64,000 nucleotides of DNA, taken from the NCBI GenBank assembly GCA_030390025.1, contig CM059430.1, positions 74,214,001-74,278,000 of the forward strand. The letters run 5' to 3'. The DNA comes from Squalus acanthias. Its lineage: Eukaryota. The notes beneath the pieces are model-generated. The model was not told the origin of the DNA. It was given only the letters and a program-made list of their open reading frames with translations, and did not search any database. Below, piece by piece: positions 7,456 to 58,800 of this stretch (positions within the stretch are counted from its first letter, which is position 1; every line of letters starts with the position of its first letter). The position numbers were made by a program, and so were the translations under genes.

Positions 7456-7629
7456 TCATCTCAACCAAATTATTCTGATTTGCATAATTGTTGTTTCTAC
7501 GTGTGAACTTATTTGTACCTCTGTATATATTGTACTCTCTTCGTGTTGTTTAGGTTTTGCAGTTTTCTTGTAACCGATCAGATCCAGATCAGCGTACGTC
7601 AGCTTATCGTCAGCTGCCCCTCCTTCTTT
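7456..7629 (-). CDS. Gene A terminal cytoplasmic exon with ITIM (LTYADL) and ITSM (TIYTEV)
   Basis: actttctag|KEGGAADDKLTYADLDLIGYKKTAKPKQHEESTIYTEVQISSHVETTIMQIRIIWLR*. Phase 0 matches the preceding exon. ITIM 7585-7602, ITSM 7516-7533. Confidence 0.85.
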   Translation of the reverse strand, partial: KEGGAADDKLTYADLDLIGYKKTAKPKQHEESTIYTEVQISSHVETTIMQIRIIWLR

Positions 7630-7731
7630 CTAGAAAGTCAACGTTTAGCATTCATTGAGTTACTTTTCCTGGAGTTGCAAAAGTCACGAAGCATTTACAT
7701 ATAATAGACAATTGAAGTAGCATAGTGTCAG

Positions 7732-8280
7732 TGGCTTGAATTTTAAAACTGCAGAGCATTAATTTAATTTACAATTTCTTTCATCAATCAACAACTCACT
7801 AGGGAACAATATCGAAACTTCCATGGATTAGGAAAAGCTAAGACTTTAGTAAACTAACGAATCTTAAATTTTAACCTTTTGAAAGTTAGTGCAAATTTTT
7901 TAAAGAATAAAAAGTGAAATATCAGTTTTTAGTTTTTCTTTCTGTCTCTTGTATCTCTCTCACATCACCATCTTTTTCACTCTCTTTATTTCGCTTTCTG
8001 TACATGATTTTACACTGAATTAAATCTAATTCTTACTTCCTGGTTTATACTTCCTAGTTTAAAGACTGTTTCTGAGAAAGGATTCTTCAAACTGATTGGT
8101 TGAAGAGCCACGCTGTTGTATGCTCAGGTCGCACACGACAGAGATCCGAGGCGCCATGTTGGATCAGACCTCGAATTACAGCAAGTTACTGTTCAAAAGA
8201 ACGCAAAAAGTCTGTGGGTAGCTATCAGAGTATTGAACGGTGAGTGCCTTTCCTCCACCGCTGACCGAATGATCCGGGCC
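7732..8280. mobile_element. Degenerate nonautonomous TIR element (Harbinger-like)
   Basis: Termini ggcttgaattt.. and ..atccgggcc with an AT-rich core. Similar end motif to the other MITEs. Confidence 0.4.
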
Positions 8281-9049
8281 GTTGAACTTCTGAAGGAATG
8301 AGTCTCCACCCTTGTAGAAGTAAATGTTCAATACCAGAGAGGTTGTTTGGCAATGAATCACGTCGTGAAAAATTCACTTACTCCTGAATACAACAGCGCT
8401 AACATTTTCTGTTCTGTTTCGTGGCTAACTAGTGGGTTTTAATGCAACTTCACACTTTGATTTCAATGCCGAATGTATCGGTGAGATACAAGATCAGGGA
8501 AATTCGTGTTTAACTGTGCATGTGCGAACTCCAGAATTTGCTGTCAGATTTACTCCATATTAAAGGTGAGCACTGATAATTTCACCGTTATTCGTAACAC
8601 AAAATCCTCGTTCTTAATTTGCCACTCCAAAGCCTCCTTATAGTCTATGGGCAGCGCTATTCCTTCCCTGCTGAAACAAAAATCCGGAAAAATAAGTCAA
8701 TTGGAGTGAAGAATCAATCTTACGTCGATAATCACGGAAATAAATATGGCCCCCAACAAAATAGGAAGGTGATTGCGTAGATAGGCAGCAACAAGCTAAT
8801 CGTTGAGTCAGCGAATTGTGGATGGGCAGAGGAATATGTAAATGCATTTGCTTAGAGGCAACGAGTTACTGTGTATGCATCAAAGTGCTCCATAGGAAAT
8901 TACTTAATTCTATAACATAAATGCTGCTTTTATTTAGGCAAATGTGGAATCTAATTTGTGCAGCGCATGGTCGCGCAAATAGCAATGAAATAAGTAACAT
9001 GTGTTTTTGCTTTCGGCTAAAGAACCAATGATGGCTGCAACACATGAGC

Positions 9050-11560
9050 ACAGGTACATAGGGCCATAGGATCAGGAGTAGGCCATTTAGCCCCTCGAGC
9101 CTGTGCCGCCATTCAGTGAAATATTGGTTGATCAGCGACCTAACTCCATATACCCGCCTTTTCCTGAAGAACTCCCCTGCTCTTTGTGAAATCTTGCCGT
9201 GGGATCTTTCATGTGCAGCACGGAATCAAGTCATTCGGCTCAACTGATCGAAGTCAGCTTATATGCTCTACAGGAGTCTCCTCCCACCCTACATCATCGA
9301 ACCCTATCAGCATATTTATCTATTACGGTCCCCCGTATGTGCTTATCTATCGTCCCCTTTAGTGCATCTATTCTATTTGCCTCAACTACTCCTTGTGGTA
9401 ACACATTCCACATTTTTACCACTCTTTGGATAAAGAAGTTTCTTCTAAATTTGCTGTTGGATTGTTTAGTGAATATCTTATATTTATGATCCAAAGCTTT
9501 GGACTCCCCACAAGTGGAAACATATTCTCTACGTCGAACTTAGCAAACCATTTCAATGGCCCAGAAATTAAACATGGATGGTTCCCACGGGGGTAAGGAT
9601 TCCCCGCGATATCGCACTCCGCGCCTACCTTTTTGCTCCGGGCCCACACGAACTTTAATTTTTAAGCCTCTCCCTGTTGCAACCGTGCAGTGTATGCGTA
9701 TCCCAGAGGCGCAATTAGTTCGTGCGAGCTCTGGGATCACGTGATTCAGTTAGAGCCAATGGCAGCACACCATCTTTCATTCATAGTTTTGACGGCAAGA
9801 ACTGTCACAGCTATGAATACTACAAATCCCCAAAAGAACAGCTAAACCTCAATTAAATTAAAAAAGTCATCACGTTAATAAAATAAGTATAGTTAAATAA
9901 ATTAATCACTGTAAACAAAAATTTGAATATTTGAAAAATTTTAAAATCTTTTTAAAAGTTATAAAAATAAACTTACTTTTCTTTAAAGTCTCTAAAAAAG
10001 ATAAACCTGTTGAATTTTTTTTTAAATAACACTTAATTAACTACTTACATTGTTAAAAGGGGGTCCTACGCCTGCTTTCTTTATGTGTAAAACCTTCACC
10101 ACTAACCTGCGCGTTCAAAGCTTAAAAAAAACTAAGTGCACTGCGTGCGCACAACCTGTAGCACGCACGTGGTTCACTTAGGAACCGCCCCCTTTGCAAT
10201 TCACGAAGTGCCGGTTTCCCGCGCATACGCAGTGCATGCAGGAAACCCGGCAATTCTGGATCTAATACGCTAGATTACACAGTAAGTACTCTTGCGTATT
10301 AGGTTTAATTTTCCCTCAGCCTTATTTCTTCTGGAGGAAAGCGCTCCAGCCTATTCGGCCTTTCCTGATAAGTGTATCCTCTCAATTCTGGTACCATTCG
10401 TGTGAATCATTTTTTTCACTTTCACCAGTGCCTCTATATTATTTTTATAATATGGAGACCAGAACTGTGCCCAGTACTGCAACTGTGATCTAACCAAGGT
10501 TCGATACAAGTTTAACATAACTTCACTGCTTTTGAGTTCTATTCTCTAGTAAAGAATCCCAATCTTGGTTTGTTTTCATATGGCCTGATTATTATGTATC
10601 GCTACTTTTAGTGATTTGTGCATTGTTATCCCCAGATTACTTGACCCCTCTACTCCATTCAGACTCTTATTATCCTAGCTGTATGTGGAATACCTATTGT
10701 TCCCAACAAAATGTACCACCTCACACTTATCTAAATTGAATTTCATCTGAAAATTACATGCCTATTCTGTAAGCTTCTTAATATCTTCCTGTATTTTGTC
10801 ATATTCTTCCTCTGTATGAACTGCACCTTCCAATGTCGTGTCGCCCGCAAATTTAAAATTACACTTATGATTTCGGAGTCAAAATTATTAATGTAAATAG
10901 TGAACAACATTTGTCCCAGCAGCAATCCCTGTGGAACACCACTTCCCACCATTTGCAAGTCTGAGTAGCTACTATTAAACCCTACTCTCTGCTTTCTGTT
11001 TTGTAGCCAGCTTGCTATCGATTGTGCTGCCTGTCCTCTGACTCAACTTGCTCTTATCTTAGTCATGAGTTTACGATGCGGCACCATATCGAAGGCCTTT
11101 TGAAAATCCAAATATATTGTATCTACTGCATTACACTTGTCTACTCTTCCTGTTACTGCTTCAAATATTCAATAAGTTTCAACATGCAGAATCCTCCCAT
11201 TTGAACTCTACTCTATTATATTTTAGGTTTCGATATGTTTATCTATGATAGCTTTGAAAAAATATGCTGCTCTCTTTCCTACCACTGGCGTTAAGCTAAC
11301 TGGTCTATAATTCACGGGACTTATTATATTTCCATGATTTAGTATAGGAATAACATTAGCTCTCCACCAGTCGCCTGGCAGTATTCCCTGTTCCAATGCA
11401 TTGTTATATATAATTAATAGCACACCTGCTATATTTTCCCCAACTTATTATAATATGCGTGGATGCAATCCATCTGGACCAGGATTTATATCCTCTCTTA
11501 AGTTTGATTAGTTTATCAATTACCCCCCTTTCTATCTTAAATATCTTTGTATCATTTTTG
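9050..11560 (-). mobile_element. CR1 LINE fragment (split by a MITE)
   Basis: RRNFFIQRVV, SGVPQG, NYRPVSLT motifs; CR1 3' tail at ~9055-9130. Confidence 0.88.
9558..10312. mobile_element. MITE inserted in a CR1
   Basis: Starts ggcccagaaatt; same family as 50049-50802; interrupts the CR1 at 9050-11560. Confidence 0.8.
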
Positions 11561-12236
11561 TATTTGATACAATATGCCCAACTCTCCTCGATCTTTTACG
11601 GCTGTCCATTGGCCCCTAAACCTGAATGTATCTCCGAACATAAAAGTGGCCCCACTATTATTAAGACTTATGCAATATTTTCATGCAATTGCTCTTGCTC
11701 AGAGTTTCTCTTAATATTGCGATCAAATTTTTAGGCACGCCAGGAAAAATATCATTTGTTATGGTGTTTCATCATAATATTATACCATTTTTCCAAATTA
11801 TCCTCACTGAGACATGCACCTTGTGTTCTGTTTCTATTCCTGCATTTATATGGTACAGGTATAAATTACGTTAAAAATGAAGTGCAGGTGCTTAGCCATG
11901 TTGCCTAATATTAATGGCAAATGTTTGGAACATTAATTCGCATATTGAAGAAGGAGTATAAGACGTGAGATCGGTGATGTCCGTGTGCCCCGATAGTTTA
12001 GGCTGCTGTAGTCCCATTTTACGGTCTTCAATTTTCTAATGAGATTGGCATTACATTTGATCGTAAAAATAACGGCGGAACGGGCCAGGGAATGGATCCA
12101 TTTTCAGGTCTATCTTCCGTGTTGCGCATTTGGAAGGAAATTTCTGGCCATCAGCTCATATAATGTGTAAAGATTTTATAATATAGGAGTATGGATGGGA
12201 AATTGCTAACTGTCACGGTGCTATAAACAATTTATG

Positions 12237-13294
12237 GCCCTGATTTTGCTCTTAAAAAAAATGGTGATGCTATGAGCACACAGCGCTATTAAAGAGTAAG
12301 AGCAACTATCGGCCTCCGGTTAATCAGAAAGTTGCTGTCCGAGTTGTCCTGCGTTGAGAGACGCTGTGTTATATCTCGCCGAAAGACTCATGGGAGGACA
12401 CTAAGTTGGGGTATTTACGCCAGAAAAAAGTTCTGGCTTACCCATTCCAAGCGTAAGTGTAACGAAGCGATCTGGCGGCTTGTTCGCAACTGACCGCAAA
12501 ATCCGGGCCAATCGTTAGATTGCTGCATGTTGGGCCGAAATTTGCGATCAGAGGCGTACCTCCAGAGTACTCTTCCAACCCGAAAAAATAAGCATTAACC
12601 TGCTGGCTCCCGGGCTTCGGAGTCTTCGGGTCCACACGCATGTGTAAAGGCCCACGAATCCCAGGGACGCAGGCGGTTTGGAAGCATCCATGGAATCACG
12701 AGTGCCAAGTCAACCAATTAGAAAGAGGGATTCCTCATAAGCTTATGGGGACTGCATTTACGAACGCAATCCGCAAAAGCTTATGAGAAATCACAAAATA
12801 AAAAAATAATTAACACAACTCTAATAAAAATAAATATTCCCTTGTTCAAAATTAATTAAAAGTCCCTTTAATTAAGAATTTAAAATGAACATTTAATTTC
12901 ATGAAAAATAATTGAATAATTGTAATACGGGCCAAAATATACATAAAGTAATATTAAATATTTAGTATTTTTGAATGATGTTTAAAATGTTAATTTAACT
13001 TTTATTTCAATCCTTACGCGGGTAAAAGGAAGCCTTACCCATGCTTTTATCAGGCATAAGGGTATCGTGGGCATTTACTGGGCCGTAGTTGGGCAGATAG
13101 CCCAAATCTGCGCCAGCAAGTGTTTTTGGGGCACATGTGGACGTTTCGTCAAGGTGAAACTTGATAGATAGCAAGTTCTGGGTTATCATGCATGCGCAGT
13201 GCATGCGGAAACCGGGAAATCGCGGGGCCATTCTGAGGGCTTAAGCTGGCATATGCTGTGCGTACGCCGTCATTGGCCCCGTAAAATCTGGGCC
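12237..13294. mobile_element. Two adjacent TIR elements (12237-12510 and 12532-13294)
   Basis: ggccctgattttgc..gcaaaatccgggcc and gggccgaaatttgc..aaaatctgggcc. The second is flanked by gtt/gtt (possible 3-bp TSD). Confidence 0.7.
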
Positions 13295-13606
13295 GTTATA
13301 TGAAATGAAAAAGCTTCTTGGTCTATTCTTTACCTGCACTTTCCTAAATCCTATGCATCCAGAAGCGAGGAGGACTGCTTAGATGGACATGCACCAGATC
13401 ACAATATACAATGCACACAAAGGACGGGTCTCATTGACAGGGAGAATTCGTGAAATTCTTATATAAATAGTTATTGATTCAGAAGTCCAAGGGAATGCAG
13501 CGCTCGCTTAGAGGAGAGACCTATGACCTTGGGCTGAGCATATATCTAATGCTAACCCAATTTTTGCAAGAAAAAAAGTCAAAGGCGATCAAATTTTACC
13601 TAAAAT

Positions 13607-14840
13607 TACATAGGTTCACAAAGGATATACAGTACAGAAACAGGCTATTCGGCACAACCAGTCCATGCCGGCGTTTATGCTCCACTCGAGTCTCCACCCG
13701 TCTTTCCTCATCTAAATCTATCAGCATAACCCTCTATTCCCTTCTCCCTCATATGCCAATCCAGCCTCCCCTTAAATGCATCTAAACTTGTCGATTCAAC
13801 TACTCCATGTGGTAGCGACTTCTATATTCTCACCGCTCTCTGTGTAAAGCAACTGATTCTGAATTCCCTATTTGATTTCTTCGTGAATACCTTATATTAA
13901 TAGCCCCTAGTCTTGCTCTTTCCCACAAGGTAAAACACTCTCTCTGTATCTACTCTATCAAAACATTTCATAATGTTAAATATCTCTATTAGGTCACCCT
14001 TCATTCTTCCCATTTCAAGCGAAAAGAGACCTAGCCTGTTCATCCTTTCCTGATATGTATACACCCGTCTTTCTGGAATCATCCTTGTAAATCATGTTTG
14101 CACACTCTCCAGTGCGTCTATATTTTTTTCGTAATATGTCGATCAGAATTTAGCGCAGTGTTCGAATTGTGTTCTAACCAACGTTCAATGCAAGTTTAGC
14201 ATAATGTCTGTAGTTTTCAATTCAATCCCTCTAGAAATAAAGCCTAGTGTTTGGTTTGCTTTCTTATGGCCTTGTTAATCTGTGTCGCTACTTTCATCGA
14301 TTTGTGCATTTTTGCTCATGGATCCCTTTACTCATCTACCCCAATTAGATTCGTGTTTTCCAAGTAATATGTGACCTGCCTAAGTTTCTTACCAAAATGT
14401 CATACCTCACAATTATCTCTGTTGAATTTAATTTGACAATTATATGCGCATTCATCAAGTTTATTAATATATTCGTGTAATTTGTTGCAGTCCTTATCAG
14501 TATTGACTATCTCCTCCCAGCCCCTCCAACCCCACTCCCCCGCCCCCCACAATTTGGTGCCATCTGCAAATTTAAAATTGTCTTTTTGATTCCAAAATCT
14601 AAACCGTTAATATAAATTGTGAACAACAGTGGTCCCAGCACTTATCCTTGTGGAACACCACGCCCCACATTCTGCCACGCTGAATAGCTACCATTTACGC
14701 CTACTCAATGCTTTAATTCTCGAAGCCAGCTAGTTAACCATTCTGCTAATTGTCCCATGACTCCACATTATCTGACCTTATTCGTTAGTCTATAATGAAT
14801 TACTTGTCGAAGGCTTTTTGAAAATCTAGTTAAATTACAC
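13607..14840 (-). mobile_element. CR1 LINE fragment
   Basis: LGLFSLE..MKGDLIEIF motif and CR1 tail. Confidence 0.85.
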
Positions 14841-15729
14841 TTATAATTTAATCGATATTTTTGCAAGTCTTGTGATCCTATTGGAGGACCAGGATTAATA
14901 ATCCTTATCAGATTAGTTCAAATGATAGTTTGCAAATTTGAAGTCAGTTTTAAAAATCTGGAAATATAATAGTTAGTTTCATTAGCAGTGTCCATTCACC
15001 TTTTGGATTAACTTAAAATTCCAGCTGGTTCAATAATATCCTTAAGGGAATCTGTACTCTTGCACCAAAACAACTTTTTGCAGCTTCCATGCATCACAGC
15101 TTGTTGGGTTATGAGCGAATACAACGTGTAAATATAATAGTGATTTGAGGTCTCCAGCTTTTAAAAAATAACCACAGACTGGTTGAACAGAACACACCAT
15201 TTGGGTTCGGTCACCTGGAGATGTCGGGTTAGGTCATCGGGCAACAACAACGGGGTGGATTTGCTTTGAGCTGCGTAGAACGGCAGGTTTCCAATAATGC
15301 AGTAAGTAGGCAGGTACAAATCTGCTATGGAGATCTGATAGTCCCTTGGTGCCATTTGATACACAAGGATTAATTTTGGACCTATAATTCGCCATGCTAT
15401 TTCCTTGTTAGCAAAAAGGAACGAGCAACGTTGTGCTACCTCTTCAATACTATAATTGGTACTTTCAAATATCAGGACATTTTTTATAAAATGGATTAAA
15501 ATGAATAATATAACTGTCTGTTAAAATCGGTCCGAGAGTTTCTTAACGCTTCGGTCAGTATTCTATATTTCTATCTTCATAGAATACGATGTATGTTTCA
15601 GAGAAGAGGTAAAGACCATGAATAACTCCAAGACGTAAGGATTCAAGTGGGAGGTTTATTTGAGCGCAAAATGTGAATAGTTTAGTTGAAATTTGAAAGA
15701 AAATAGAAGGAAAAATATGATGACCTTAC

Positions 15730-15773
15730 CTTATCTTCATGCTGAGTAGTATTTACTGAATTTCTCTTTGCAC
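15730..15773 (-). CDS. Gene A short cytoplasmic exon
   Basis: ttttatttcccaccag|GT GCA AAG..GAT AAG|gtaagg = GAKRNSVNTTQHEDK, phase 1 to 0, strong splice sites. Confidence 0.75.
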
Positions 15774-16320
15774 CTGGTGGGAAATAAAATTTAAATTAAT
15801 CACCAAGAACGGAGTAATATTTCCGTTGAACGTCAGAACAGCTAAATCAACTGTAATTAGGTTAGTTCACGGGTTGTAATAGGAGTACAAGTATCACGAT
15901 ATGTCTTCAAAATTTATAAAAAAGAGCGCTCTTCGATTGCAACTGTGTTCTATCCTTTGTGTTGAAGTTGTGCAAGCATCATTATACCCCCAAAAATGAC
16001 TGCTACAGATCAGCATCTACATCAAAATGGTTTAGGAATTCCCAGCTACGAGACTGATAAAGTCACGTCATGATCTAACCTTGAGTTCAAGCAAACAGAT
16101 ACGGAGATGTATGTTTGAATAATTTTTCCTGTAACCCGTCAGTAATATTTTACCATTCAGGTGCTCCGCTTGTAATGATGACTGTAATCTGCCCTTTCGT
16201 TCTCTACCTGCCAGTAAAGTATTTTTAACTGTATCAATTATAACGTTAATTTCTAATTTTAAAAGTTTTAAAATCTGCCGTTAGAAAGACTATGATCAAC
16301 AAAGGCGAAACGGTTCGTAG

Positions 16321-16434
16321 CTTTAGATGTAACTAACTGGTGTCGTTTCACAATCGAAATGATCATCAACAGAATTACCACCGCACCCACGGCACATCCA
16401 GCGACCAGAGGAATAGGGATCGTGGACTCAAAAT
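16321..16434 (-). CDS. Gene A transmembrane exon
   Basis: ctcatag|AT TTT.. = DFESTIPIPLVAGCAVGAVVILLMIISIVKRHQLVTSK. Uncharged TM followed by KR. 114 nt like the gene B TM exon, but the donor reads G|CTACGA (GT lost). Confidence 0.82.
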
Positions 16435-17422
16435 CTATGAGATTGATAGCAAATCAAAATCAGCAACTGAGGAATGTAAAAAGCATATTCACACGTTTCA
16501 ATGTCACAAGCATATTTTCCAAATATACTCCTTTGAGAATACAATAATACAGTACAATAAGTCTCAGCACGTCCATTTTGTTATTTCCATATTCAGCTGA
16601 TTTGTATGAAATCAGGAACGGAGAGTTTGAAACACCTCGTAGTTTGGATAATCAGCAGCAATGCGAAATATTGAGAAACACACATCAAATGGTTCCCTTC
16701 TAATTGATTGGAATAAAGGGCAATGGGAAAAGATTCAATCTGTTCACGATGTGTGGGGAAAAACTCATTTTGGATGTTTTATCTGATCAATATATAGGAA
16801 AAACGCTTAAATACATTATAATGGAACGTGTTCACAAATTTATTGGAGGTGCCCTTCGGAGCAAATCAAAACGAAGACTAGCTCCTTCTTTCCATATGAA
16901 GGAGGCAAGCAATTCCTATTTGGTACAGTGTCGAGGGAGTCGCACTATGCACCTGATGATGCCGGGACTGGTATTGGATTGCTTCATGGCAGCGGGAGTG
17001 TGTAAATGCTAAATTCCCCTACTCCATCCCTCCAGTCCTCACTAACTTTACCCGTCCTACAATGCATTGTGCGATTTCTGGCAACAACCCTCACAGTGCC
17101 TTCTCTGCGTGAATTTCCAATGCTTTGGCTGTTAAGCTGATTTATGATAACTATGTTGAGTTCTGCTGTCCAATGTCAGCGAGCTTGCTTATGTCTAATT
17201 TAATTCTGATAAGTTCCTAATGCTCAACAGAAAGGCAACCTTCACCCAATCAATGGAAGCTGGAGTAAAACCAGACTTCGGAGCTGACTGAATGATATGC
17301 AAACAACTGCAGTATACACTTCCCGAATTTCCTTGCATTAACCCATTATCTGCGATGGAATGTCGATTATATCGAGGAAAACACAGAGATCGAGAAATAT
17401 GTTACGTATGCAACAACATTAC

Positions 17423-17728
17423 CTTTGTTAGCAAAGGTGTAGCTGGCATTTGCTGGAATTGAGTTTGAAACGTGATGCACTTTAAAGGTATAAACTCTGC
17501 CCCGCTCAATTGGTTTTGTCTCTTCTAAGGAGCTGATAACTTCATATAGACCCTCTGGCGTTGTCTTTTGTTCAGTTCGAAATCCTGCCGCAATTTCGGT
17601 AACGTTTTTTTGCCAGGTGAGGTTAAAATCCTTCGGATAAAACGCAGCCGATCTGCACTGGAGTCTCAGAAAAGCAGATGAAGCCTGTTCGGATGGCATA
17701 GGGACAATATTCATTGGAGTGGGTACAG
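17423..17728 (-). CDS. Gene A C1-set Ig domain exon (306 nt, open, phase 1/1)
   Basis: VPTPMNI..LRLQCRSAAFYPKDFNLTWQKN..GLYEVISSL..YTFKVHHVS. FYPxxxxLTW is the C1 signature. The YxC Cys is TTT (Phe). Acceptor ttttatttt ag, donor g|gtaatg. Confidence 0.92.
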
Positions 17729-19158
17729 CTAAAATAAAAGAGCAAAAACAGATAAAGCAAAACAATTGACATGTATACTTCCTGCTCATTGTTTAAAAAA
17801 AATAACTACCACCTGCGACCGTGCATCGTAGCTGTATCGATAGTTGTTAATGACTCTGACTGGAGCCGAATTTAACATGTTCTTCACTATATCCAGAGAC
17901 ATTATTTCCAGAGTTTCCTCCCCTACAGTTTTGACGTATCACTGTTATATTGAAACCAATTATTTTAAACATCGGGCCTCTTTTTTTATTAATATCAATG
18001 TGTTCACCACCAATGCTAGCGAATCAAGGGTCCAGTGAGAAGGAGGAATTAAAGGAAATTAGTATTAGTAAAACAATAGTGTTGGACAAATTGATGGAAC
18101 AGAAAGCCGATAAATCCCCAGTGCCTGACAATCTGCATCCCAGAGAAGTAAAAGAGGTAGCCATGGAAATAGTGAATGCATTGCTTTTCATCTTTAAAAA
18201 TTCTGTAGATTATGGAACAGTTCCTGCAGATTGGAGGGTGGCAAATGTAACACAACTATTGGAAAAAGGAGGGAGACAGAAAACAGGGAACTTCAGACCG
18301 GTTAGCCTAACATCAGTAGCAGGGCAAAGGCTGAAGTCTATGAAAACGGATGTGATAACAGGACACTTAGAAAATATCAATTCGATTAGACAGATTCAAT
18401 ATGGATTTATGAAAGGGAAATCATGATTGAAAAACCTACTGGAGCTTTTTGAGGAATGTTTGCTAGAATAGATAAGGGAGAACCAGTGGATGTGGTGTAT
18501 TTGGATTTTTAGAAGGCCATTGATAAAGTCCCACATAAGAGCTTAGTGTGCAAAATTAAAGCACATGGGATTGGGGTAATATACTAGCATGGATTGAAAA
18601 TTGGTTAACAGATAGGAAAGAGAGAGTAGTAATAAATGAGTCTTTTTTCGGGGTAGCAGGCGGTGACTAGTGCGGTACCGCAGGGATCAGTGCTTCGGCT
18701 CCAGCTATTCAAAATATATATCAATCATTTGTATTAGGGAGCCAAAAGTATTACTTCCAAGTTTGCTGACGGCACGAAACTAGGTGGGATTGTGAGATGT
18801 GAGGAGGATGCAAAGTGGCTTCAAGGCGATGTAGACACGTTCAGTGTGTGGGCACATATGTGGCAGATGCAGTATAACGTGGATAAACGTGAAGTAAGCA
18901 ACTTCGGTAGTTAAAACAGAAAGGCAGAGTATTATTTAAATGGTGATAGATTGGGAAATGTTGATGTACAAAGGGAACTTGGAATCCTTGTACACCAGTC
19001 ACTGAACGCAAACATGCAGGTGCAGCAAGCAGTTTGAAAGGCAAATGGTATGTTGGCCTTCATTGCAAGGGAATTTGTGTACAGGAGCAAGGATGTCTTA
19101 CAACAGTTATGAGAAGTCGCACAACACCAGGTTATAGTCCAACAGATTTATTTAATTT

Positions 19159-19192
19159 TACAAGCTTTCGAAGCAGTTCGCTCCTTCGTCAG
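19159..19192 (-). ncRNA. Minimal hammerhead ribozyme, pLTR copy
   Basis: Exact reverse complement of 22498-22531. Confidence 0.8.
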
Positions 19193-19414
19193 GTAAGTTA
19201 GCAATGAGAGAATCTCCCAGAATTCACAATTTAAACACAGATAAAATCTATTCACATTATTCCCTGCAACAAAGAGCACAGTCAAGACAATGAGATGTGT
19301 CCCAGGGGGTCCAACGTGTCAAACCACCTGCTGGCTGCATATCCTGTCAATTTGTGTTCTTGTGTTAGCCTTTTTAAAAAAAAAACACCTGGGAAGACCG
19401 GCCATGATGTCAAG

Positions 19415-22093
19415 TCACGTTCTGTATCGTGACATGAACCCGATATCGCGATTGAGGCCATCCTCATGAGTGCGGAACTTGGCTATCAGTTTCTGCTCTA
19501 TGATTTTGCGCTGTCGTGTATCTCGAAGGCCGCCTTGGAGAACGCTTACCCGCAGATCCGAGGCTGAATGCCCCTGGCTGCTGAAGTGTTGCCCGACTGG
19601 AAGGCAACCCTCCTGCCTGGCGAATGTTGCGCGGTGTCCGTTCATACGTTGTCTCAGTGTCTGCATGGTCTCGCCGATGTACCATGCTCTGGAGCATCCT
19701 TTACTGCAAAGTATCAGGTAGACAACGTTGGCCGAGTCACATGAGTATGTACCGTGTACCTGCTGGGTAGTGTCCTCACGTGTAATGATGGTATCTGTGT
19801 CCATGATTTGGCATGTCTTGCAGAGGTTGCCGTGGCAGGGTTGTGTGGTGTCTTGGTTGCTGTTCTCCTGAAAGATGGGTAATCTGCTGCGAACGATGGT
19901 ACTTTTGAGGTTAGGCAGCTGCTTTAAGGCGAGTAGTGGAGGCGTGGGGATGGCCTTAGCAAGGTGTTCGTCATCATCGATGACATGTTGAAGGCTGCGA
20001 AGACAATGGCGTAGTTTTTCCGCTCCGGGGAAGTACTGGACGACGTAGGGTACTCTGTTGGTTGTGTCCCGTGTTCGTCTTCTGAGGAGGTCTATGCGGT
20101 TTTTCGCTGTGGCCCGTCGGAACTGTCGATCGACGAGTCGAGCGTCATATCCCGTTCTTACGAGAGCGTCTCTCAGTGTCCGTAGGTGTCCATCGCGTTC
20201 CTCCTCGTCTGAGCAGATCCTGTGTATTCGCAGGGCTTGTCCATAGGGGATGGCGTCTTTAACGTGGTTAGGGTGGAAGCTGGAGAAGTGGAGCATCGTA
20301 TGGTTGTCCGTGGGCTTGCGGTAGAGTGAAGTGCTAAGGCATCCGTCTTTGATGGAGATTCGTGTGTCCAAGAATGAAACCGATTCTGAGGAGTAGTCCA
20401 TGGTGAGTTTGATGGTGGGATGGAACCTGTTGATGCTATCGTGTAGTCCTTTCAGTGATCCTTCGCCGTGGGTCCAAAGGAAGAAGATGTCGTCGATGTA
20501 TCTGGTGTACAGCGTTGGTTGGAGGTCCTGTGCAGCGAAGAAGTCTTGCTCGAACTTGTGCATGAAGATGTTGGCGTATTGGGGTGCGAATTTGGTCCCC
20601 ATGGCTGTTCCGTGTGTTTGGGTGAAAAAATGGTTGTCGAAGGTGAAGACATTGTGGTCAAGGATGAAGCGGATGAGTTGTAAGATGGCGTCCGGAGATT
20701 GGCTGTTGTTGGTGTTGAGTACTGAGGCTGTCGCAGCGATGCCGTCATTGTGGGGGATATTGGTGTAGAGTGCCGATACGTCCATTGTGACGAGGAGTGT
20801 TCCTGGTTCAACTGGTCCATGGGTGCTGAGTTTCTGCAAGAAGTCTGTAGTGTCGCGACAGAAGCTGGGGGTTCCCTGTACGATGGGTTTCAGGATGCCC
20901 TCGACGTACCCAGAGAGGTTCTCACACAGGGTTCCGTTGCCTGATACGATAGGACGTCCGGGTGTGTTGGCTTTGTGTATCTTTGGGAGGCAGTAAAAGT
21001 CTCCTACGCGGGGAGTACGTGGGATGAGAGCGCGTAGGATGTTTTGAAGGTCTGGATCGATGGTCTTGATCAGTCTATTGAGTTGGCGGGTGTGTTCTTT
21101 GGTCGGATCTGCGGGTAGCTGTCTGTTGTGTTCCTGGTTGTCCAGTTGTCGGTATGCTTCTTTGCAATAGTCCGTTCTGTTCTGTATGACGATTGCTCCT
21201 CCTTTGTCCGCTGGTTTGATGACAATGTTGCGGTTGGTCTTGAGTGCGTGGATGGCGTTGCGTTGTGCTCGGGTGACATTCTGGACTGTCTTGTGAGTAC
21301 GGCTGATGAATCTGGTGTTGATGCATTTCCTGACAGCTTGAGCATACATGTCAAGCTTAGGTTTGCGACCCTCCGGAGGGGTCCAATTTGACTCTTTCTT
21401 CCTCGGTTGTAGCACTGCGGTTCCCTCTGTCTGCTGTTCTGGATCATTGATTGTCCCATTAGGAATGTTGCTGACATCTTGGGATTTGTGGTAGTATTCC
21501 CGGATCCTCATTCTCCTGATGAATTCCTCTGTGTCCGCCGCGAGACCGATGGGGTCCATTTTGGTGGTGGGGCAGAACTAGAGCCCTAGGGCGAGAGCTT
21601 CGATTTCGTCTGGTTGAAGGGTGTGGTCCGACAGGCTGACGATGGACTTCCCTGTGGTTGCAACCGTGGTACCGGGGGAGGCATGGTTGTGGCTGGTGGT
21701 TACGCCGAGTTTCTCAAGCTTCCTGTTCTTGATGCGCATGTAGGCAGCGTAGTTCCGTTGCCTCGTCTGTTTGGCGGTGTCTCGTAGCTGGTCTGCTGTG
21801 TCCTGAGCACAGGCTGAGAGCATGGACTCTATCTTGGTTTCGAGGTTGCGACGTCTGCTGTAGAGCTGGTGTACGAGATGTTTGAGGAGTGTGCGAGAGG
21901 TACGACGGCAAAGTCTCTCAGCGTAGTCTGTGTTGTATGTCGACTTGAGTGGGTTCGTGATCTGTAGTCCTTTCGGAATCTTGTCTGCTTTCTTGCATCT
22001 CTGCAGGTACTTGATGTCTGTGTCAATATGCGCGATCTTCTAGGCGATTCTGTCCACTTTGAGCCGGCAGTTTGCGGTGTCAATAGAGGTCAT
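19415..22093 (-). CDS. Penelope ORF (RT + GIY-YIG); single frame with two in-frame TAGs
   Basis: KPADKGG, GRPIVS, GTAMGT, RYIDD (RT) and NVVYLILC..YIGET..RQRMNGH (GIY-YIG). The ATG at 22093 is in frame with the 714-aa ORF. Stops at 22040-22042 and 21578-21580; no frameshift. Confidence 0.95.
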
Positions 22094-22181
22094 GATGTGG
22101 AGATGCCGGCGTTGGACTGGGGTGGACAAAAATGAGAAGTCGCACAACACCAGGTTATAGTCCAACAGATTTATTTAATTT

Positions 22182-22215
22182 TACAAGCTTTCGAAGCAGT
22201 TCGCTCCTTCGTCAG
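22182..22215 (-). ncRNA. Minimal hammerhead ribozyme, pLTR copy upstream of the ORF
   Basis: Exact reverse complement of 22498-22531. Confidence 0.8.
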
Positions 22216-22497
22216 GTAAGTTAGCAATGAGAGAATCTCCCAGAATTCACAATTAATTCACGATACAGAACGTGACTTGACATCATGGCCGGTCTTCCCA
22301 GGTGTTTTTTTTTTAAAAAGGCTAACACAAAAACACAAATTGACAGGATATGCAGCCAGCAGGTGGTTTGACACGTTGGACCCCCTGAGACACATCTCAT
22401 TGTCTTGACTGTGCTCTGTGTTGCAGGGAATAATGTGAATAGATTTTGTCTGGGTTTAAATTGTGAATTCTGGGAGATTCTCTCATTGCTAACTTAC

Positions 22498-22531
22498 CTG
22501 ACGAAGGAGCGAACTGCTTCGAAAGCTTGTA
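22498..22531 (+). ncRNA. Minimal hammerhead ribozyme in the Penelope inverted pLTR
   Basis: CTGACGA-A-GGAGC-gaact-GCTTC-GAAA-GCTT-GTA: catalytic boxes, stem II and a palindromic AAGCTT stem III, typical of PLE dimeric hammerheads. Confidence 0.8.
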
Positions 22532-23831
22532 AAATTAAATAAATCTGTTGGACTATAACCTGGTGTTGTGCGACTTCTCATTTTTGTCCACCCCTGTCCA
22601 ACGCTGGCATCTCCACATCATTACAACAGTTATACAGCGACTTAGTGAGGCAACAACTGGAGTACTGTATGCAGTTTTGGTCTCCTTACCTAAGAAAGGA
22701 TAGACTTGCCACAGAGCGAGTGCAGCCAGAGTTCACCAGACTGATTCCTGGGATGGCAGGACTGTCGGATGAGGAGAGATTGGGTCGAGCATGCCTGTAT
22801 TCAGTAGAATTTAGAAGAATGAGAGGGGATCTCATTGAAACGTATAAAATTCTGAAAATGGGATAGACAGACTGGATGCAGGGAGGATGTTTCCTTTGGC
22901 TGGGGGTCGATAACGATGCGTCACAGACTCAGGATACGGGGTAGGACATTTAGGACTGAGATGAGGAGAAATTTCTTCACTCAGCGGGTGGGGAAACAAT
23001 GGAATTCTGTACCACAGAAGGCTGTGGCGGCCAAGTCACTTAATATATTTAAGAAGGCGATAGAAAGATTTCTAGACACAAAAGGCATCAAGGGGTATGG
23101 GCAGAGAGGGGGAATATGCTATTGAGATACAGGATCAGCCATGAACATATTGAATTGCGGAGCAGGCTCGAAGGGCTGAATGGACTACTCCTGCTCCTAT
23201 TTTTTTATGTTTCTATGTTTTCGAGTCGGCATGTTGTGCTTAAACGACGGCAATAGTGCAACTCGGGTTTTATTGATACATAGAGAACATTACCTCTTCT
23301 GGATAGAAAGGATCTAATTAGAACCTCTGTTTGGACTACGGCACTTGGTTTATCGTGTGCATCTCGCCAGTTTTACCGAACGGCGGTTCAGGATTTTTTT
23401 CAAGATAGCAGAAATTGCAAGCGTACCATCTAAATGATAAGGGTGTGATTGTTTGGTCTCCTCCCCTCTTCTTTCAAAATGAGATATTGGGCCTTTAAAC
23501 ATGTTTAACATTGCAAATAACCCTAAGACTTTTCATCGTGCTTCTCAGTGCTAAAATGAAAAAGACGCGTTTAATTTCCAAGCCTTGAATTCACTTTACT
23601 TGATAAACATGCAATTAAAACACAATTGATGATAAAGATCGATTGGCAAATTTTTCAAAGACTCTGGAACTGGAAACGGTTCCTTATTTTTGAACAAGTG
23701 TCGTTCCAATCAAGTAGAACGGTGTATTGTTTTATATGCAGGGCAATTCCCTATACAAATTCCTTGTTAAGCGTAGTATCAATATCGACAACAAGTAAAC
23801 ACTTCACGATTCCAGTTCCACTAACACTTAC

Positions 23832-24142
23832 CGTATACAACAAGTTTTACACGAGTTCCTTTTCCCACCGATTGATCCCCAACTTTGGTTACACAACGAT
23901 ACGATCCGGCGTCCGGGATCCTCACGTACAGGAGGTGAAGGTAGGCGCCTGCCTTTCTTCACTTGAAACTGTTTTATGCTATCTTCTTGCAGATGGTATC
24001 GGTACCCTCTCTCCACCAATAAACGTTTAATTTTGAATGGTTCAGATGGAAGGGGAAAGGGCATTGTAAGGTAAGGTTTGCACCTCTGAGCGCCTTCATT
24101 TGTACAATGCCCGGAGTCATCTTACCGAAGTGCCCACAGCAA
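23832..24142 (-). pseudogene. Gene A V-set exon with germline-joined J motif (frameshifted)
   Basis: Acceptor ttgttcatag. Reads ANLTLQC..LNVYWWREG..(indel)..LQEDSIKQF..(indel)..GAYLHLLYVRIPDAGSYRCVTKVGDQSVGKGTRVKLVVY, donor g|gtaagt. Both Cys, Trp, DxGxYxC and GxGT are present. Two in-frame stops lie between the compensating indels. Confidence 0.9.
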
Positions 24143-35432: not shown

Positions 35433-35483
35433 TTATGTCTAAGAATGTAAAGTACATTTTTGATTGCTAGGAACGCCACTTCC

Positions 35484-36429
35484 CACATACAACTCGTTAG
35501 TGCCGCATCCATCAACAAATTTGTTCTCGTAACTTAAACACTACAGAGTTCTAGACACTTACATTCTCCAGATTAAAGAAAAGTGATCCATGGAGTAGCA
35601 CACGAGGGCCCAGAATTGCGATCCGAGGCTTCCCGCGGGCTCATGCCTCCGACCTGTAAAAAAATCAACGAATTTTCCTGGTGGCCTGGGATATATGGAG
35701 ACTTGCGATCTTGGGCCTCTCCGGGTACGCGCGCGCAGAGGCCCAGGTATTCCAGGGGTGCATGCAGGGATCACGTGGGCCAGCCCAACCAATAAAATAA
35801 GGCAATTCTCATTCATATTATGCGAGTTCCGTGCGTAAGGAAACCCCATACGTATGACTGAGGATCACTTTGAAATACACGAACACATGAAATAAATGTA
35901 TTAAAAATTACATATTGAAATTAATTAAAATGCCATTTAATTAAATATTTTAAACAAAAATGTAATTTTTGAAAAAATATTTTTTTTCAACGATCTAAAA
36001 ATAAACTTACTTTACGGCTGCTTTTACCAGGCGCAAGTTTTGCTCAGGCTCACGAGCATCCAGTGGGTAAAAGTTGGACAACTAGCGCAACTCTCCAACT
36101 GCAGTGGTATTCTACCGCGGATGCGGAGGATCTGTCAAGAAGATCCTTGAACGATCGCAAATTCCGGGTTTTAGCGCATGCGCTTCGCATACCTAAACCC
36201 GGAACTTGCGAGGCATCTACAGGCGCGTATACACCTCGTACACGCCCATGGGGTCGCAAAATACGGCCTTAGATATTTACCAGTTGTCAAGGGTTGTTGC
36301 TACGTATTGGTAAGAAAGAACCTTTCTCCAGTAAACAATTATATCCTTGATGTGTAAGGTAAACTTCTCACCCTTGTTCAGTGCTACAGAGTCACGAACT
36401 GAGTGAATTCTGAGAAATATCTTGGACAG
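35484..36429 (-). pseudogene. Gene C: degenerate V exon paralogous to gene B, split by a MITE
   Basis: 5' half 36270-36429 (DSVALNKGEKFTLHI..IIVYWRK..TLDNW) and 3' half 35484-35605 (FNLENVSV*NSVVFKLR..FVDGCGT). Flanking intron sequence matches gene B. Donor GT->GG. Confidence 0.8.
35606..36269. mobile_element. MITE inserted into the gene C V exon
   Basis: gggcccagaattgcga..tcgcaaaatacggcc termini. The V reading resumes on both sides. Confidence 0.85.
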
Positions 36430-48156: not shown

Positions 48157-48314
48157 TTACATGTCCATGAGTTCGAACACCCTGTTCTGGTAATTCTGCC
48201 ACACCTGTCCGTACACTACGTTCTCCTCGTGGCGTTTAGTTTTGGGACCTTTCTTCCGACCGACGAAATCGACAGCACAGTAGGTCTGTCTTTCTTCAGC
48301 GTCCATTTGCAGAC
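48157..48314 (-). CDS. Gene B tyrosine-motif exon 2 (QTYCAV, ITIM VVYGQV), terminal
   Basis: atacag|GLQMDAEERQTYCAVDFVGRKKGPKTKRHEENVVYGQVWQNYQNRVFELMDM*, with AATAAA 4 nt after the stop (48148-48153). Same Y12/Y35 spacing. Confidence 0.75.
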
Positions 48315-49725: not shown

Positions 49726-49836
49726 CTCTGCGTGCACGTTATTCTTTTTCATCTGCTTGGGGTTTGAATGCTTCTTGGGTTCAGTAAAATTCAAAGTTGC
49801 GTAAGTGAGCTGTTCATTTGTTGTGTCTTCGATAGC
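49726..49836 (-). CDS. Gene B tyrosine-motif exon 1 (ITIM LTYATL; second motif degenerate NVHAEV)
   Basis: atttacag|AIEDTTNEQLTYATLNFTEPKKHSNPKQMKKNNVHAE. Tyr at codon 12 and His at codon 35 align exactly with gene A Y12/Y35. The 3' end is uncertain (read-through runs into the AT microsatellite). Confidence 0.8.
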
Positions 49837-50048
49837 CTGTAAATCTATTTGCACAACATGCATTATATCATTGAACAGATTGAGATCGTTTGTAGATTTC
49901 AAATGCAATCGTAATATTTTGCCAGAGTTCCATTTCCTAAAATCCAATACTCATTGATTTATTTTTTTGCTTCTAAATTGAGTTTATATATATTTTCTGT
50001 TTTAAAATGTTAGCACTGCCACAAGGCACAATTATATTGAATGCTATT

Positions 50049-53187: not shown

Positions 53188-53301
53188 CTTTGAGTCTATG
53201 TAATTTCAGTAGTTTCAAAATGGTGATCACCAGTAGTAGAATTAAAAATCCAACTCCTAAACAGGGATAAAGGAACACGAGTGGAAAACCATGATACGTA
53301 T
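53188..53301 (-). CDS. Gene B transmembrane exon
   Basis: gtcttgcag|DTYHGFPLVFLYPCLGVGFLILLLVITILKLLKLHRLK G|gtaaaa, 114 nt, phase 1/1. Confidence 0.88.
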
Positions 53302-56013: not shown

Positions 56014-56318
56014 CTGAAAGGTGAATAACGTGATATACACGTGCACCAGTGTGAAGAGAGACGTGTGATATCTGACAGGTATAATTCGTTCCGCTCTGCA
56101 AAGAAACTGTTTCATGGAGATAACTGGAAACTTCATACAGTCCCGCTGTGTTCTGTTTTTTATTTAGTTCATACCGCTCTGAATTTCGGATCTATTTTTA
56201 AACCAAGTGATATTCAGCCTTTCCGGGAAAAACGCAGCCGTTTTACACTCAAGAGTCAAAGAAGTCGATGACACAGTTCTAAGCACAGAGGAGAAGATCT
56301 GTAAAGGCGTCGGAGGAA
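56014..56318 (-). pseudogene. Gene B C1-set exon with 1-nt deletion (305 nt)
   Basis: tttccacag|PPTPLQIF..LTLECKTAAFFPERLNITWFKNRSEIQSG(-1 at ~56171)ELNKKQNTAGLYEVSSYL..NYTCQISHVSL..|gtaagt. Clearly homologous to the 306-nt gene A C1 exon. Not shown in the ORF track. Confidence 0.92.
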
Positions 56319-58196: not shown

Positions 58197-58517
58197 GAAA
58201 TACAATTAGATCTGTGCCATTTCCATCAACAAATTCGGATGTCCCAACTTGCACTCTGCTTTTATAGACTCCAGAGTCGTGGAATGTCACATTCTGCAGA
58301 TGAAAGGAAACTGTTCCATTCTGTAGAGCTTCAAATTTTCTACGGTTGTCAGGCGTTACTGTTATCAATTTTTTGTCTACGACCTTGCCCCAGAAAACAT
58401 TTATTTCCTCGTCCTTCTTTAATCCAGATACCGTGGCAAGTAGGGTAACGTTTTCACCCCTTTTCACCGCTACAGATTCGGGGAACTGAGTGCATTTCAG
58501 GGAAACATCTTCGGCAG
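58197..58517 (-). CDS. Gene B V-set exon with joined J motif, lacking both canonical Cys
   Basis: ttccgacag|CT GCC.. = AEDVSLKCTQFPESVAVKRGENVTLLATV..INVFWGK..PDNRRKF..SFHLQNVTFHDSGVYKSRV..FVDGNGTDLIVF|gtaagt. 321 nt open, phase 1/1. Confidence 0.92.
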
Positions 58518-58734: not shown

Positions 58735-58800
58735 CTGTGCAGAAAATCCACAGCATGGCACAATACTGAAAAGCAACGTTCGAAACAAACTTAAACCCAT
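58735..58800 (-). CDS. Gene B leader exon
   Basis: ATG 58800, MGLSLFRTLLFSIVPCCGFSAQ|gtatgt, hydrophobic signal-like. Ends phase 0, whereas the V exon starts phase 1. Confidence 0.65.

What the first reader, a model, noticed from the sequence alone, without database searches (positions are those of the whole stretch)
58197..58517. Open VJ domain lacking both canonical disulfide cysteines
In an uninterrupted 321-nt exon the B-strand Cys is Ala (NVTLLA) and the F-strand Cys is Ser (DSGVYKS), while Trp, DSGxY and GNGT are kept. An extra Cys sits in the A strand (KCTQ). The gene C paralog also shows no Cys at these sites (FTLHI, VFKLR), whereas gene A has both. Paired loss in two paralogs suggests a disulfide-free subfamily (as in CD2/CEACAM N-domains) rather than random decay.
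Basis: partly seen in the sequence, partly recalled or inferred. Interest (0 to 1): 0.7.

Follow-up and report, generated by a model that had tools for sequence, protein, structure and literature searches.

The report
Shark receptor subfamily losing its disulfide
One small branch of a roughly 100-gene shark-type immune receptor cluster lacks the two cysteines that normally staple an antibody-like domain together, likely lost in two steps, and this gene probably still encodes a braking receptor that has a near-identical, likely activating twin.

Summary
Observation confirmed. The minus-strand exon 58197-58517 is an open VJ-type V domain with Ala and Ser at the B- and F-strand cysteine sites; short-read contigs carry the same codons. 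It belongs to a leader-VJ-C1-TM-ITIM gene in a cluster of about 100 paralogs, a family present across cartilaginous fishes (auto-named SIRP-like) and noted before by this scan on other DNA. The loss is inherited, not decay of one copy: B-Cys is absent in 11 of 11 aligned members of one clade and present in 85 of 85 other paralogs; three of the 11 (plus a frameshifted fourth) also lost F-Cys; most others carry a new G-strand Cys. So the loss was likely stepwise, not paired, and gene C is a wreck that proves nothing. Caveats: gene B has four 1-nt deletions in other exons in the assembly (read contigs show the intact form at the two sites tested), 8 of 18 clade V exons are broken, clade dN/dS is not distinguishable from 1, and no Cys-less ortholog was found in other species. 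A 95%-identical twin has an Arg transmembrane segment. Verdict: real, modestly new variant of a known kind.

The parts
58197..58517 (-). Gene B VJ exon (single-exon V-set domain with J-like GxG motif), open, no B or F cysteine, 4 N-glycosylation sequons
   Evidence: contig cover
58435..58437 (-). B-strand site, Ala (GCC) in place of Cys
58258..58260 (-). F-strand site, Ser (AGC) in place of Cys
58492..58494 (-). Lone A-strand Cys at a column that is Val in 76 of 85 canonical paralogs; Phe in paralog L003
58219..58221 (-). G-strand GxG middle residue, Asn here; Cys (TGC) in most other clade members
58735..58800 (-). Leader exon; 66 nt in the assembly against 67 nt in 13 of 14 paralogs (1-nt deletion near 58781); a short in-frame ATG lies at 58754-58756
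   Evidence: read contigs carry an extra base
56014..56318 (-). C1 exon; 1-nt deletion near 56170 in the assembly
   Evidence: all contigs laid there in X1, X3, X5 carry the base
53188..53301 (-). Transmembrane exon without a charged residue in the hydrophobic stretch
49726..49844 (-). Cytoplasmic exon with ITIM LTYATL (49792-49809); exon bounds inferred from splice motifs and paralogs
48157..48314 (-). Last cytoplasmic exon with two Tyr motifs (48271-48288, 48202-48219); two further 1-nt deletions against paralogs, not tested with reads
35478..36429 (-). Gene C: broken V exon of the same clade in two pieces (36280-36429 and 35478-35585); B site deleted, F site Leu, G-strand Cys kept; no C1 exon of its own found in the window
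7585..24142 (-). Gene A: VJ exon 23832-24142 with both Cys and two stops, C1 exon 17423-17728, TM near 16.4 kb, ITIM 7585-7602

Best explanation
Gene B is a germline-joined VJ-C1 membrane receptor gene whose V domain lacks both canonical cysteines, a state it shares with three close paralogs and likely reached in two steps, and it likely encodes the inhibitory member of a paired receptor. Shown: the exon structure, the cysteine pattern across the cluster, the ITIM tail, and a 95%-identical paralog (L002) whose next transmembrane exon has an Arg and a stop. Inferred: the ancestor of the clade lost B-Cys and gained a G-strand Cys; one branch then lost the orphaned F-Cys; the domain would still fold as a V sandwich around Trp, Tyr-corner and hydrophobic core, probably less stably; ligand binding would recruit SH2 phosphatases through the ITIM, while the twin would signal through an acidic-TM adaptor (established for SIRP, NKp30 and similar pairs; recalled). 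The single-base gaps in gene B are more likely consensus errors or a null allele than a fixed loss.
For: Cys table over 96 V exons: B-Cys 0 of 11 in the clade, 85 of 85 outside; F-Cys 8 of 11 and 84 of 85; G-strand Cys 9 of 11 and 0 of 85. Careful tree of 28 rows: clade 100/99, F-Cys-keeping group 99/98, double-loss group 89/91. Codons GCC/AGC shared by gene B, L002, L003, L004. The double-loss branch is old relative to its sisters (dS 0.59-0.93) with pairwise dN/dS 0.44-0.87, gene B itself 0.47-0.76. Substitution-only neutral simulation leaves a mean of 1.7 of 10 frames open, 6 or more in 76 of 2000 runs, against 10 of 18 open in the genome. Four clade genes are whole in the assembly in the exons examined (L002, L006 Arg-TM type; L007, L010 ITIM type). 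AlphaFold model pLDDT 83, pTM 0.72, V-set fold, top Foldseek hit NKp30 TM 0.78. Read contigs show the intact form at the leader and C1 sites.
Against: Codon-model test does not reject dN/dS = 1 for the clade (10 sequences, p 0.47), while 4 of 6 canonical groups reject it; core columns are less protected than in two control groups (tree length core/surface 2.44/3.40 against 1.16/3.60 and 0.94/2.26). Within the double-loss group changes are mostly non-synonymous (15:3 and 5:2). 8 of 18 clade V exons are broken against about 12-15 of 90 outside (read by eye; biased, since broken clade copies were also sought by DNA). Of the 4 double-loss genes 2 are pseudogenes (L003, L004), gene B is broken in the assembly at 4 places and two of these were not tested. 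No general excess of 1-nt deletions in the window against the L003 gene (11 against 7 in 7428 columns). Contigs collapse paralogs and show presence, not absence. L002's TM exon lies 8 kb downstream behind a fragment of another C1 exon, so the link is inferred. No Cys-less ortholog among 33 V domains from other species. The five AlphaFold models ranged from 83 to 56 pLDDT, and such a model says nothing on stability.
Confidence: 0.58

Rival explanations
1. Relaxed decay: loss of B-Cys crippled the clade's V domain, the double-loss group is drifting towards pseudogene status, and gene B is a dead or dying copy whose V exon is open only because it is young.
For: dN/dS not distinguishable from 1; 8 of 18 V exons broken; four 1-nt deletions in gene B in the assembly; L003 and L004 carry stops or frameshifts; no ortholog found elsewhere.
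Against: Frames stayed open over dS about 0.7-0.9 between subgroups, unlike the neutral simulation; Trp, DSGxY and GxG kept; five copies from whole or probably whole genes show constraint in core columns (p 0.03); read contigs show intact forms at two of the four sites; the clade kept duplicating and includes both tail types.
Confidence: 0.27
2. Rewired disulfides drove the change: the clade swapped the B-F bond for one using the new G-strand Cys (to F-Cys within the domain, or between chains as in CD79a/b), and the gene B branch later dropped this too.
For: G-strand Cys codon TGC and F-Cys are both kept in all 12 scored members of the sister group, broken copies included, with only silent change at the F codon; the G-strand Cys aligns with the GCG of CD79b, and CD79a Cys119-CD79b Cys136 form the inter-chain bond (PMC10251933, passage; that Cys136 is this GCG Cys is recalled); UrIg2 V domains dimerise through G-strand disulfides (PMC12227049, passages).
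Against: 29 of about 99 columns are invariant in that group, and a neutral Cys codon would survive with probability 0.20 (both 0.04), so the signal is weak; gene B and L002 have Asn there, so it does not explain their own state; the TM Cys of some members could also pair.
Confidence: 0.1
3. The gene belongs to an old disulfide-free family of the CD2/CEACAM kind.
For: CEA and CEACAM1 N-domains also have no Cys at the F site (Leu in the aligned stretch) and head the profile search by summed weak matches.
Against: No single CEACAM stretch passed the threshold; second domain is C1-set; J-like GxG motif; nearest full-length homologs are two-Cys VJ-C1 receptors of sharks, rays and chimaera; same cluster and exon plan as about 90 two-Cys paralogs.
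Confidence: 0.03
4. The missing cysteines are sequencing or assembly errors.
For: The same gene shows several probable consensus errors.
Against: Same codons in four separate loci and in short-read contigs, F site in two studies.
Confidence: 0.01

Closest known systems
Chondrichthyan gene models auto-named 'tyrosine-protein phosphatase non-receptor type substrate 1-like' / 'signal-regulatory protein beta-1-like' (Scyliorhinus canicula, Callorhinchus milii, Mustelus asterias; also unnamed or Ig-lambda-like models of Mobula and Heterodontus)
   Same: VJ-C1-TM plan, ITIM or short tails, 27-40% V identity, interleaved with this genome's canonical subfamilies in the tree
   Different: All 33 retrieved V domains keep both Cys and none has the G-strand Cys (read; four regex flags there are artefacts of truncation or DAAVYHC)
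Mammalian SIRP alpha/beta paired receptors
   Same: VJ plus C1 domains; ITIM and charged-TM pair (pairing recalled; SIRP listed among joined-VJ genes in PMC11599192, passage)
   Different: One C1 rather than two (recalled); canonical disulfide missing here; SEP-domain (NSFL1C-type) marker genes lie on C8 and C11, not on C6; ligand unknown
NKp30 / NCR3
   Same: Top structural match (3NOI, TM 0.78); single-exon VJ; Arg in the TM of the twin L002 (NKp30's Arg recalled)
   Different: NKp30 has no C1 domain and keeps the disulfide (recalled); gene B has ITIMs
PRARP / VJC1 / UrIg non-rearranging antigen-receptor-like genes
   Same: Unsplit VJ exon followed by C1 (PMC10751288 and PMC12227049, passages)
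   Different: UrIg2 domains each have the canonical B-F disulfide; MHC linkage here could not be tested (class II alpha hits on unplaced contigs); PRARP papers not held
CEACAM and CD2 N-terminal domains
   Same: V-set fold without the canonical disulfide (CEACAM F site seen; B site and CD2 recalled)
   Different: Convergent only: no C1, no J motif, no significant single-domain match
CD79b (Ig-beta)
   Same: Best PDB sequence match of the exon (E 0.006); GCG in the G strand as in 9 of 11 clade members
   Different: CD79b keeps B and F Cys, has one domain and an ITAM (recalled); gene B itself has Asn at that site

Membership tests
Ig V-set, joined-VJ type | V-set profile match and fold | tested here: met
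   PF07686 35.8 bits over cut-off 26; model and Foldseek
Ig V-set, joined-VJ type | V and J-like GxG strand in one exon | tested here: met
   321-nt exon ends in GNGTDLIVF before the donor
Ig V-set, joined-VJ type | Canonical B-F disulfide | tested here: not met
   Ala and Ser; only one Cys in the domain
Chondrichthyan VJ-C1 (SIRP-like annotated) receptor cluster | Leader-VJ-C1-TM-tail exon plan in a tandem cluster | tested here: met
Chondrichthyan VJ-C1 (SIRP-like annotated) receptor cluster | Best full-length homologs are members of that family | tested here: met
SIRP (true orthology) | V-C1-C1 ectodomain | tested here: not met
   One C1 exon between V and TM; the SIRP plan is recalled
SIRP (true orthology) | Synteny with NSFL1C-region markers | tested here: inconclusive
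   SEP-domain hits on C8 and C11 only; one marker, paralogs not told apart
SIRP (true orthology) | CD47 binding | not testable with these tools
   needs binding assay
NKp30/NCR3 | Single VJ domain without C1, Arg TM | tested here: not met
   C1 exon present; gene B TM uncharged with ITIM tail
PRARP/VJC1 | MHC or MHC-paralogon linkage | tested here: inconclusive
   MHC II alpha hits on unplaced contigs C3672, C3751; defining papers not held
CEACAM/CD2 | Disulfide-free N-terminal V domain | tested here: met
CEACAM/CD2 | Followed by C2/I-type domains, no J motif | tested here: not met
   paralogous C1 exon scores as C1-set (gene B's C1 aligned to it); GxG present
Paired receptor family | Near-identical ectodomains with ITIM tail or charged TM | tested here: inconclusive
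   Gene B ITIM type; L002/L004 95% identical with Arg-TM exon next downstream; splicing not shown

The most novel reading that the evidence does not exclude
A shark lineage rebuilt an antigen-receptor-shaped germline VJ-C1 receptor: it gave up the universal B-F disulfide, gained a CD79-like G-strand cysteine that links two chains covalently, and one branch (gene B and its activating twin) then shed every structural cysteine, giving a natural series from canonical to disulfide-free V domains under ligand-driven selection.
Probability: 0.12. Interest if true: 0.7.

Novelty: new variant of a known kind. Interest (0 to 1): 0.42.

Why it matters
The B-F disulfide is close to invariant in joined-VJ domains, the class from which Ig and TCR are thought to derive. 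A tandem cluster holding canonical, one-Cys-lost and both-Cys-lost copies side by side is a ready natural series for asking how a V domain tolerates the loss and what compensates, with possible use for disulfide-free binding scaffolds. It also adds a likely inhibitory/activating pair to a large, barely described shark receptor family. Weight is limited: disulfide-free V domains are known elsewhere, the branch is small, appears lineage-restricted and may be decaying.

Tried and rejected
Gene C as evidence: rejected, B site deleted and exon split. Expression: no RNA holder listed and nothing laid from three runs guessed to be RNA; no evidence either way. Homodimer model of the L007 V domain: no answer, score 0.02, alignment not used; not used. 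Word-index protein searches: none at threshold with the exon or the clade profile at near length; 4 hits at longer length, the three family-like ones with both Cys. ESM Atlas gave only generic V-set clusters. Synteny markers inconclusive. One search used wrong coordinates (a low-complexity intron stretch); redone. dN/dS point values from the codon model were not printed (parse failure); only likelihood ratios and tree lengths are used. The 96-row tree is the quick method only; 9 rows were left out of it (3 duplicates, 6 frameshifted or 5'-disrupted) and 3 further V matches were never extracted. A small-share run of a second species label (X6) had one 301-bp contig at depth 2.5 on the exon's 5' part; its codons were not shown, not used. 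Ten literature searches found no description of this cluster or of its cysteine loss; three key papers (shark NCR3, PRARP, primordial immune complex) are not held and no supplements were read, so print novelty is not established.

Full report
Observation. The given coordinates are exactly a minus-strand exon, 58517 to 58197, 321 nt, with AG and GTAAGT ends in phase 1 and an open frame. It scores as Pfam V-set (35.8 bits, cut-off 26). The B-strand site is Ala (GCC), the F-strand site Ser (AGC); Trp, DSGxY and GNGT are kept, and the only Cys lies in the A strand. A 481-bp short-read contig spans the exon with one other letter, away from these sites, and a contig from a second study spans the F site; the first sample may or may not be the source of the assembly. 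Gene A has both Cys but two stops. Gene C is no witness: its B site is inside a deletion and an insertion splits the exon.

The gene. Gene B reads leader (58735-58800), VJ, C1 (56014-56318), uncharged TM (53188-53301), an ITIM exon (LTYATL, 49792-49809) and a last exon with two more Tyr motifs. In the assembly it has four 1-nt deletions against its paralogs: leader, C1, and two in the last exon. At the C1 site every contig laid in runs X1, X3 and X5 carries the base (1 contig each). At the leader site two window-identical contigs break exactly at the site and contigs with an extra base bridge it, one of them in a form found in none of the assembled paralogs. Contigs collapse paralogs and show presence only, so this shows that an intact form exists, not that the deleted form is false. 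The last-exon sites were not tested. The window has no general excess of 1-nt gaps (11 against 7 versus the L003 gene). I put gene B being intact in the species at about 60% (inference).

The family. The exon has 105 matches in the own genome, 101 of them on contig C6 between 57 and 77 Mb. Of 96 V exons aligned, 11 form one clade (100/99 in a careful 28-row tree). B-Cys: 0 of 11 in the clade, 85 of 85 outside. F-Cys: 8 of 11 and 84 of 85. Cys in the middle of the G-strand GxG: 9 of 11 and 0 of 85 (that column is shifted by a gap, but no Cys appears there in the sequences). With broken copies the clade has 18 V exons, 10 open. Gene B, L002, L003 and L004 share GCC/AGC; the 12 scored members of the sister group keep F-Cys and the G-strand TGC. 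The simplest history, inferred with the canonical paralogs as outgroup, is loss of B-Cys and gain of the G-strand Cys on the clade stem, loss of F-Cys in the gene B branch, then G-strand Cys to Asn in B, L002 and L004. The A-strand Cys replaces a Val found in 76 of 85 canonical copies and is Phe in L003, so it likely serves as a buried hydrophobic residue; being alone it cannot form an intra-domain bond.

Pairing. L002 (95% identical V; open leader and C1) has no gene B-type TM in the 20 kb downstream; the next TM exon, 8 kb on and behind a fragment of another C1 exon, has an Arg and a stop after a few residues. L004 is its broken tandem copy. L006 has the same tail type; L007 and L010 are whole ITIM-type genes in the exons examined. 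This is the usual layout of paired receptors; the splice link is inferred.

Selection. Gene B against the sister group: dS 0.69-0.92, dN/dS 0.47-0.76. A codon model does not reject dN/dS = 1 for 10 clade sequences (p 0.47), whereas 4 of 6 canonical groups do. Core columns are only mildly protected (tree length 2.44 against 3.40 for the rest; controls 1.16/3.60 and 0.94/2.26); five copies from whole or probably whole genes give p 0.03 for core columns. Neutral substitution on the tree of the 10 open copies would leave 1.7 open on average, 6 or more in 76 of 2000 runs. So the clade was not dead from its origin, but constraint is relaxed, and diversifying selection on a ligand-binding domain and decay both fit.

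Structure. AlphaFold2 on a 10-row alignment gave a V sandwich (best model pLDDT 83, pTM 0.72, others 56-69); the top Foldseek match is NKp30 (TM 0.78). The best PDB sequence match is CD79b, whose GCG aligns with the clade's G-strand Cys. A model does not show stability.

Other species. A full HMMER scan gave 77 hits; the full-length single-domain ones looked up are VJ-C1 receptors of catshark, horn shark, manta ray and chimaera, auto-named SIRP-like, Ig-lambda-like or unnamed (10 looked up, 9 chondrichthyan, one snake). All 33 family V domains retrieved keep both Cys, many pair with canonical subfamilies of this genome, none falls in the clade. Profile searches added nothing Cys-less. The clade is lineage-restricted or unannotated elsewhere.

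Known systems. Joined-VJ genes comprise CD79, NITR, SIRP, CD8, NKp30 and PRARP (PMC11599192, passages). VJ-C1 precursors and UrIg are discussed in PMC10751288 and PMC12227049 (passages); UrIg2 keeps the canonical bond in every domain and dimerises through extra G-strand disulfides. CD79a Cys119 and CD79b Cys136 form an inter-chain bond (PMC10251933, passage). CEACAM N-domains lack the F Cys but are not relatives at single-domain level. It works like a SIRP/NKp30-type paired receptor; membership in SIRP, NCR3, PRARP or CEACAM proper was not met or inconclusive. Earlier notes of this scan describe the same family, including neighbours on this contig; none listed mentions the cysteine loss. Ten paper searches found no description; key papers were not held and supplements were not read.

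Verdict. New variant of a known kind; interest 0.42.

Noticed in passing
G000:C6:57-77 Mb: About 100 single-exon VJ genes in one cluster, in many subfamilies that have counterparts in other sharks, rays and chimaera; mostly only auto-named.
   Followed up: partly
L135 (G000:C6:72476741-72485000) and L142: L002/L004 look like chimeras: a gene B-type leader-V-C1 placed in front of a C1 fragment and Arg-TM exon of another subfamily.
   Followed up: partly
window 58781, 56170, 48174: Three of gene B's four 1-nt deletions sit in the same short context (a GG pair before AAC in the paralogs), which hints at a systematic consensus error.
   Followed up: partly
L005, L008, L010 V exons: These carry a further Cys four residues after the F-strand Cys, giving a CxxxC...GCG pattern like that of CD79b.
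   Followed up: no
window 49726-49844 and 48157-48314: The tail is built from two similar exons; the second Tyr motif of the first has His in place of Tyr in all paralogs examined.
   Followed up: partly
window 19418-21577 (-): 720-aa open frame with reverse transcriptase and GIY-YIG-like end, Penelope-type retroelement by appearance (label recalled), inside gene A's V-C1 intron.
   Followed up: no
L159 (G000:C6:74.08 Mb) and window 35478-36429: Gene C has a duplicate with the same deletion and insertion, so it was copied after it died.
   Followed up: partly
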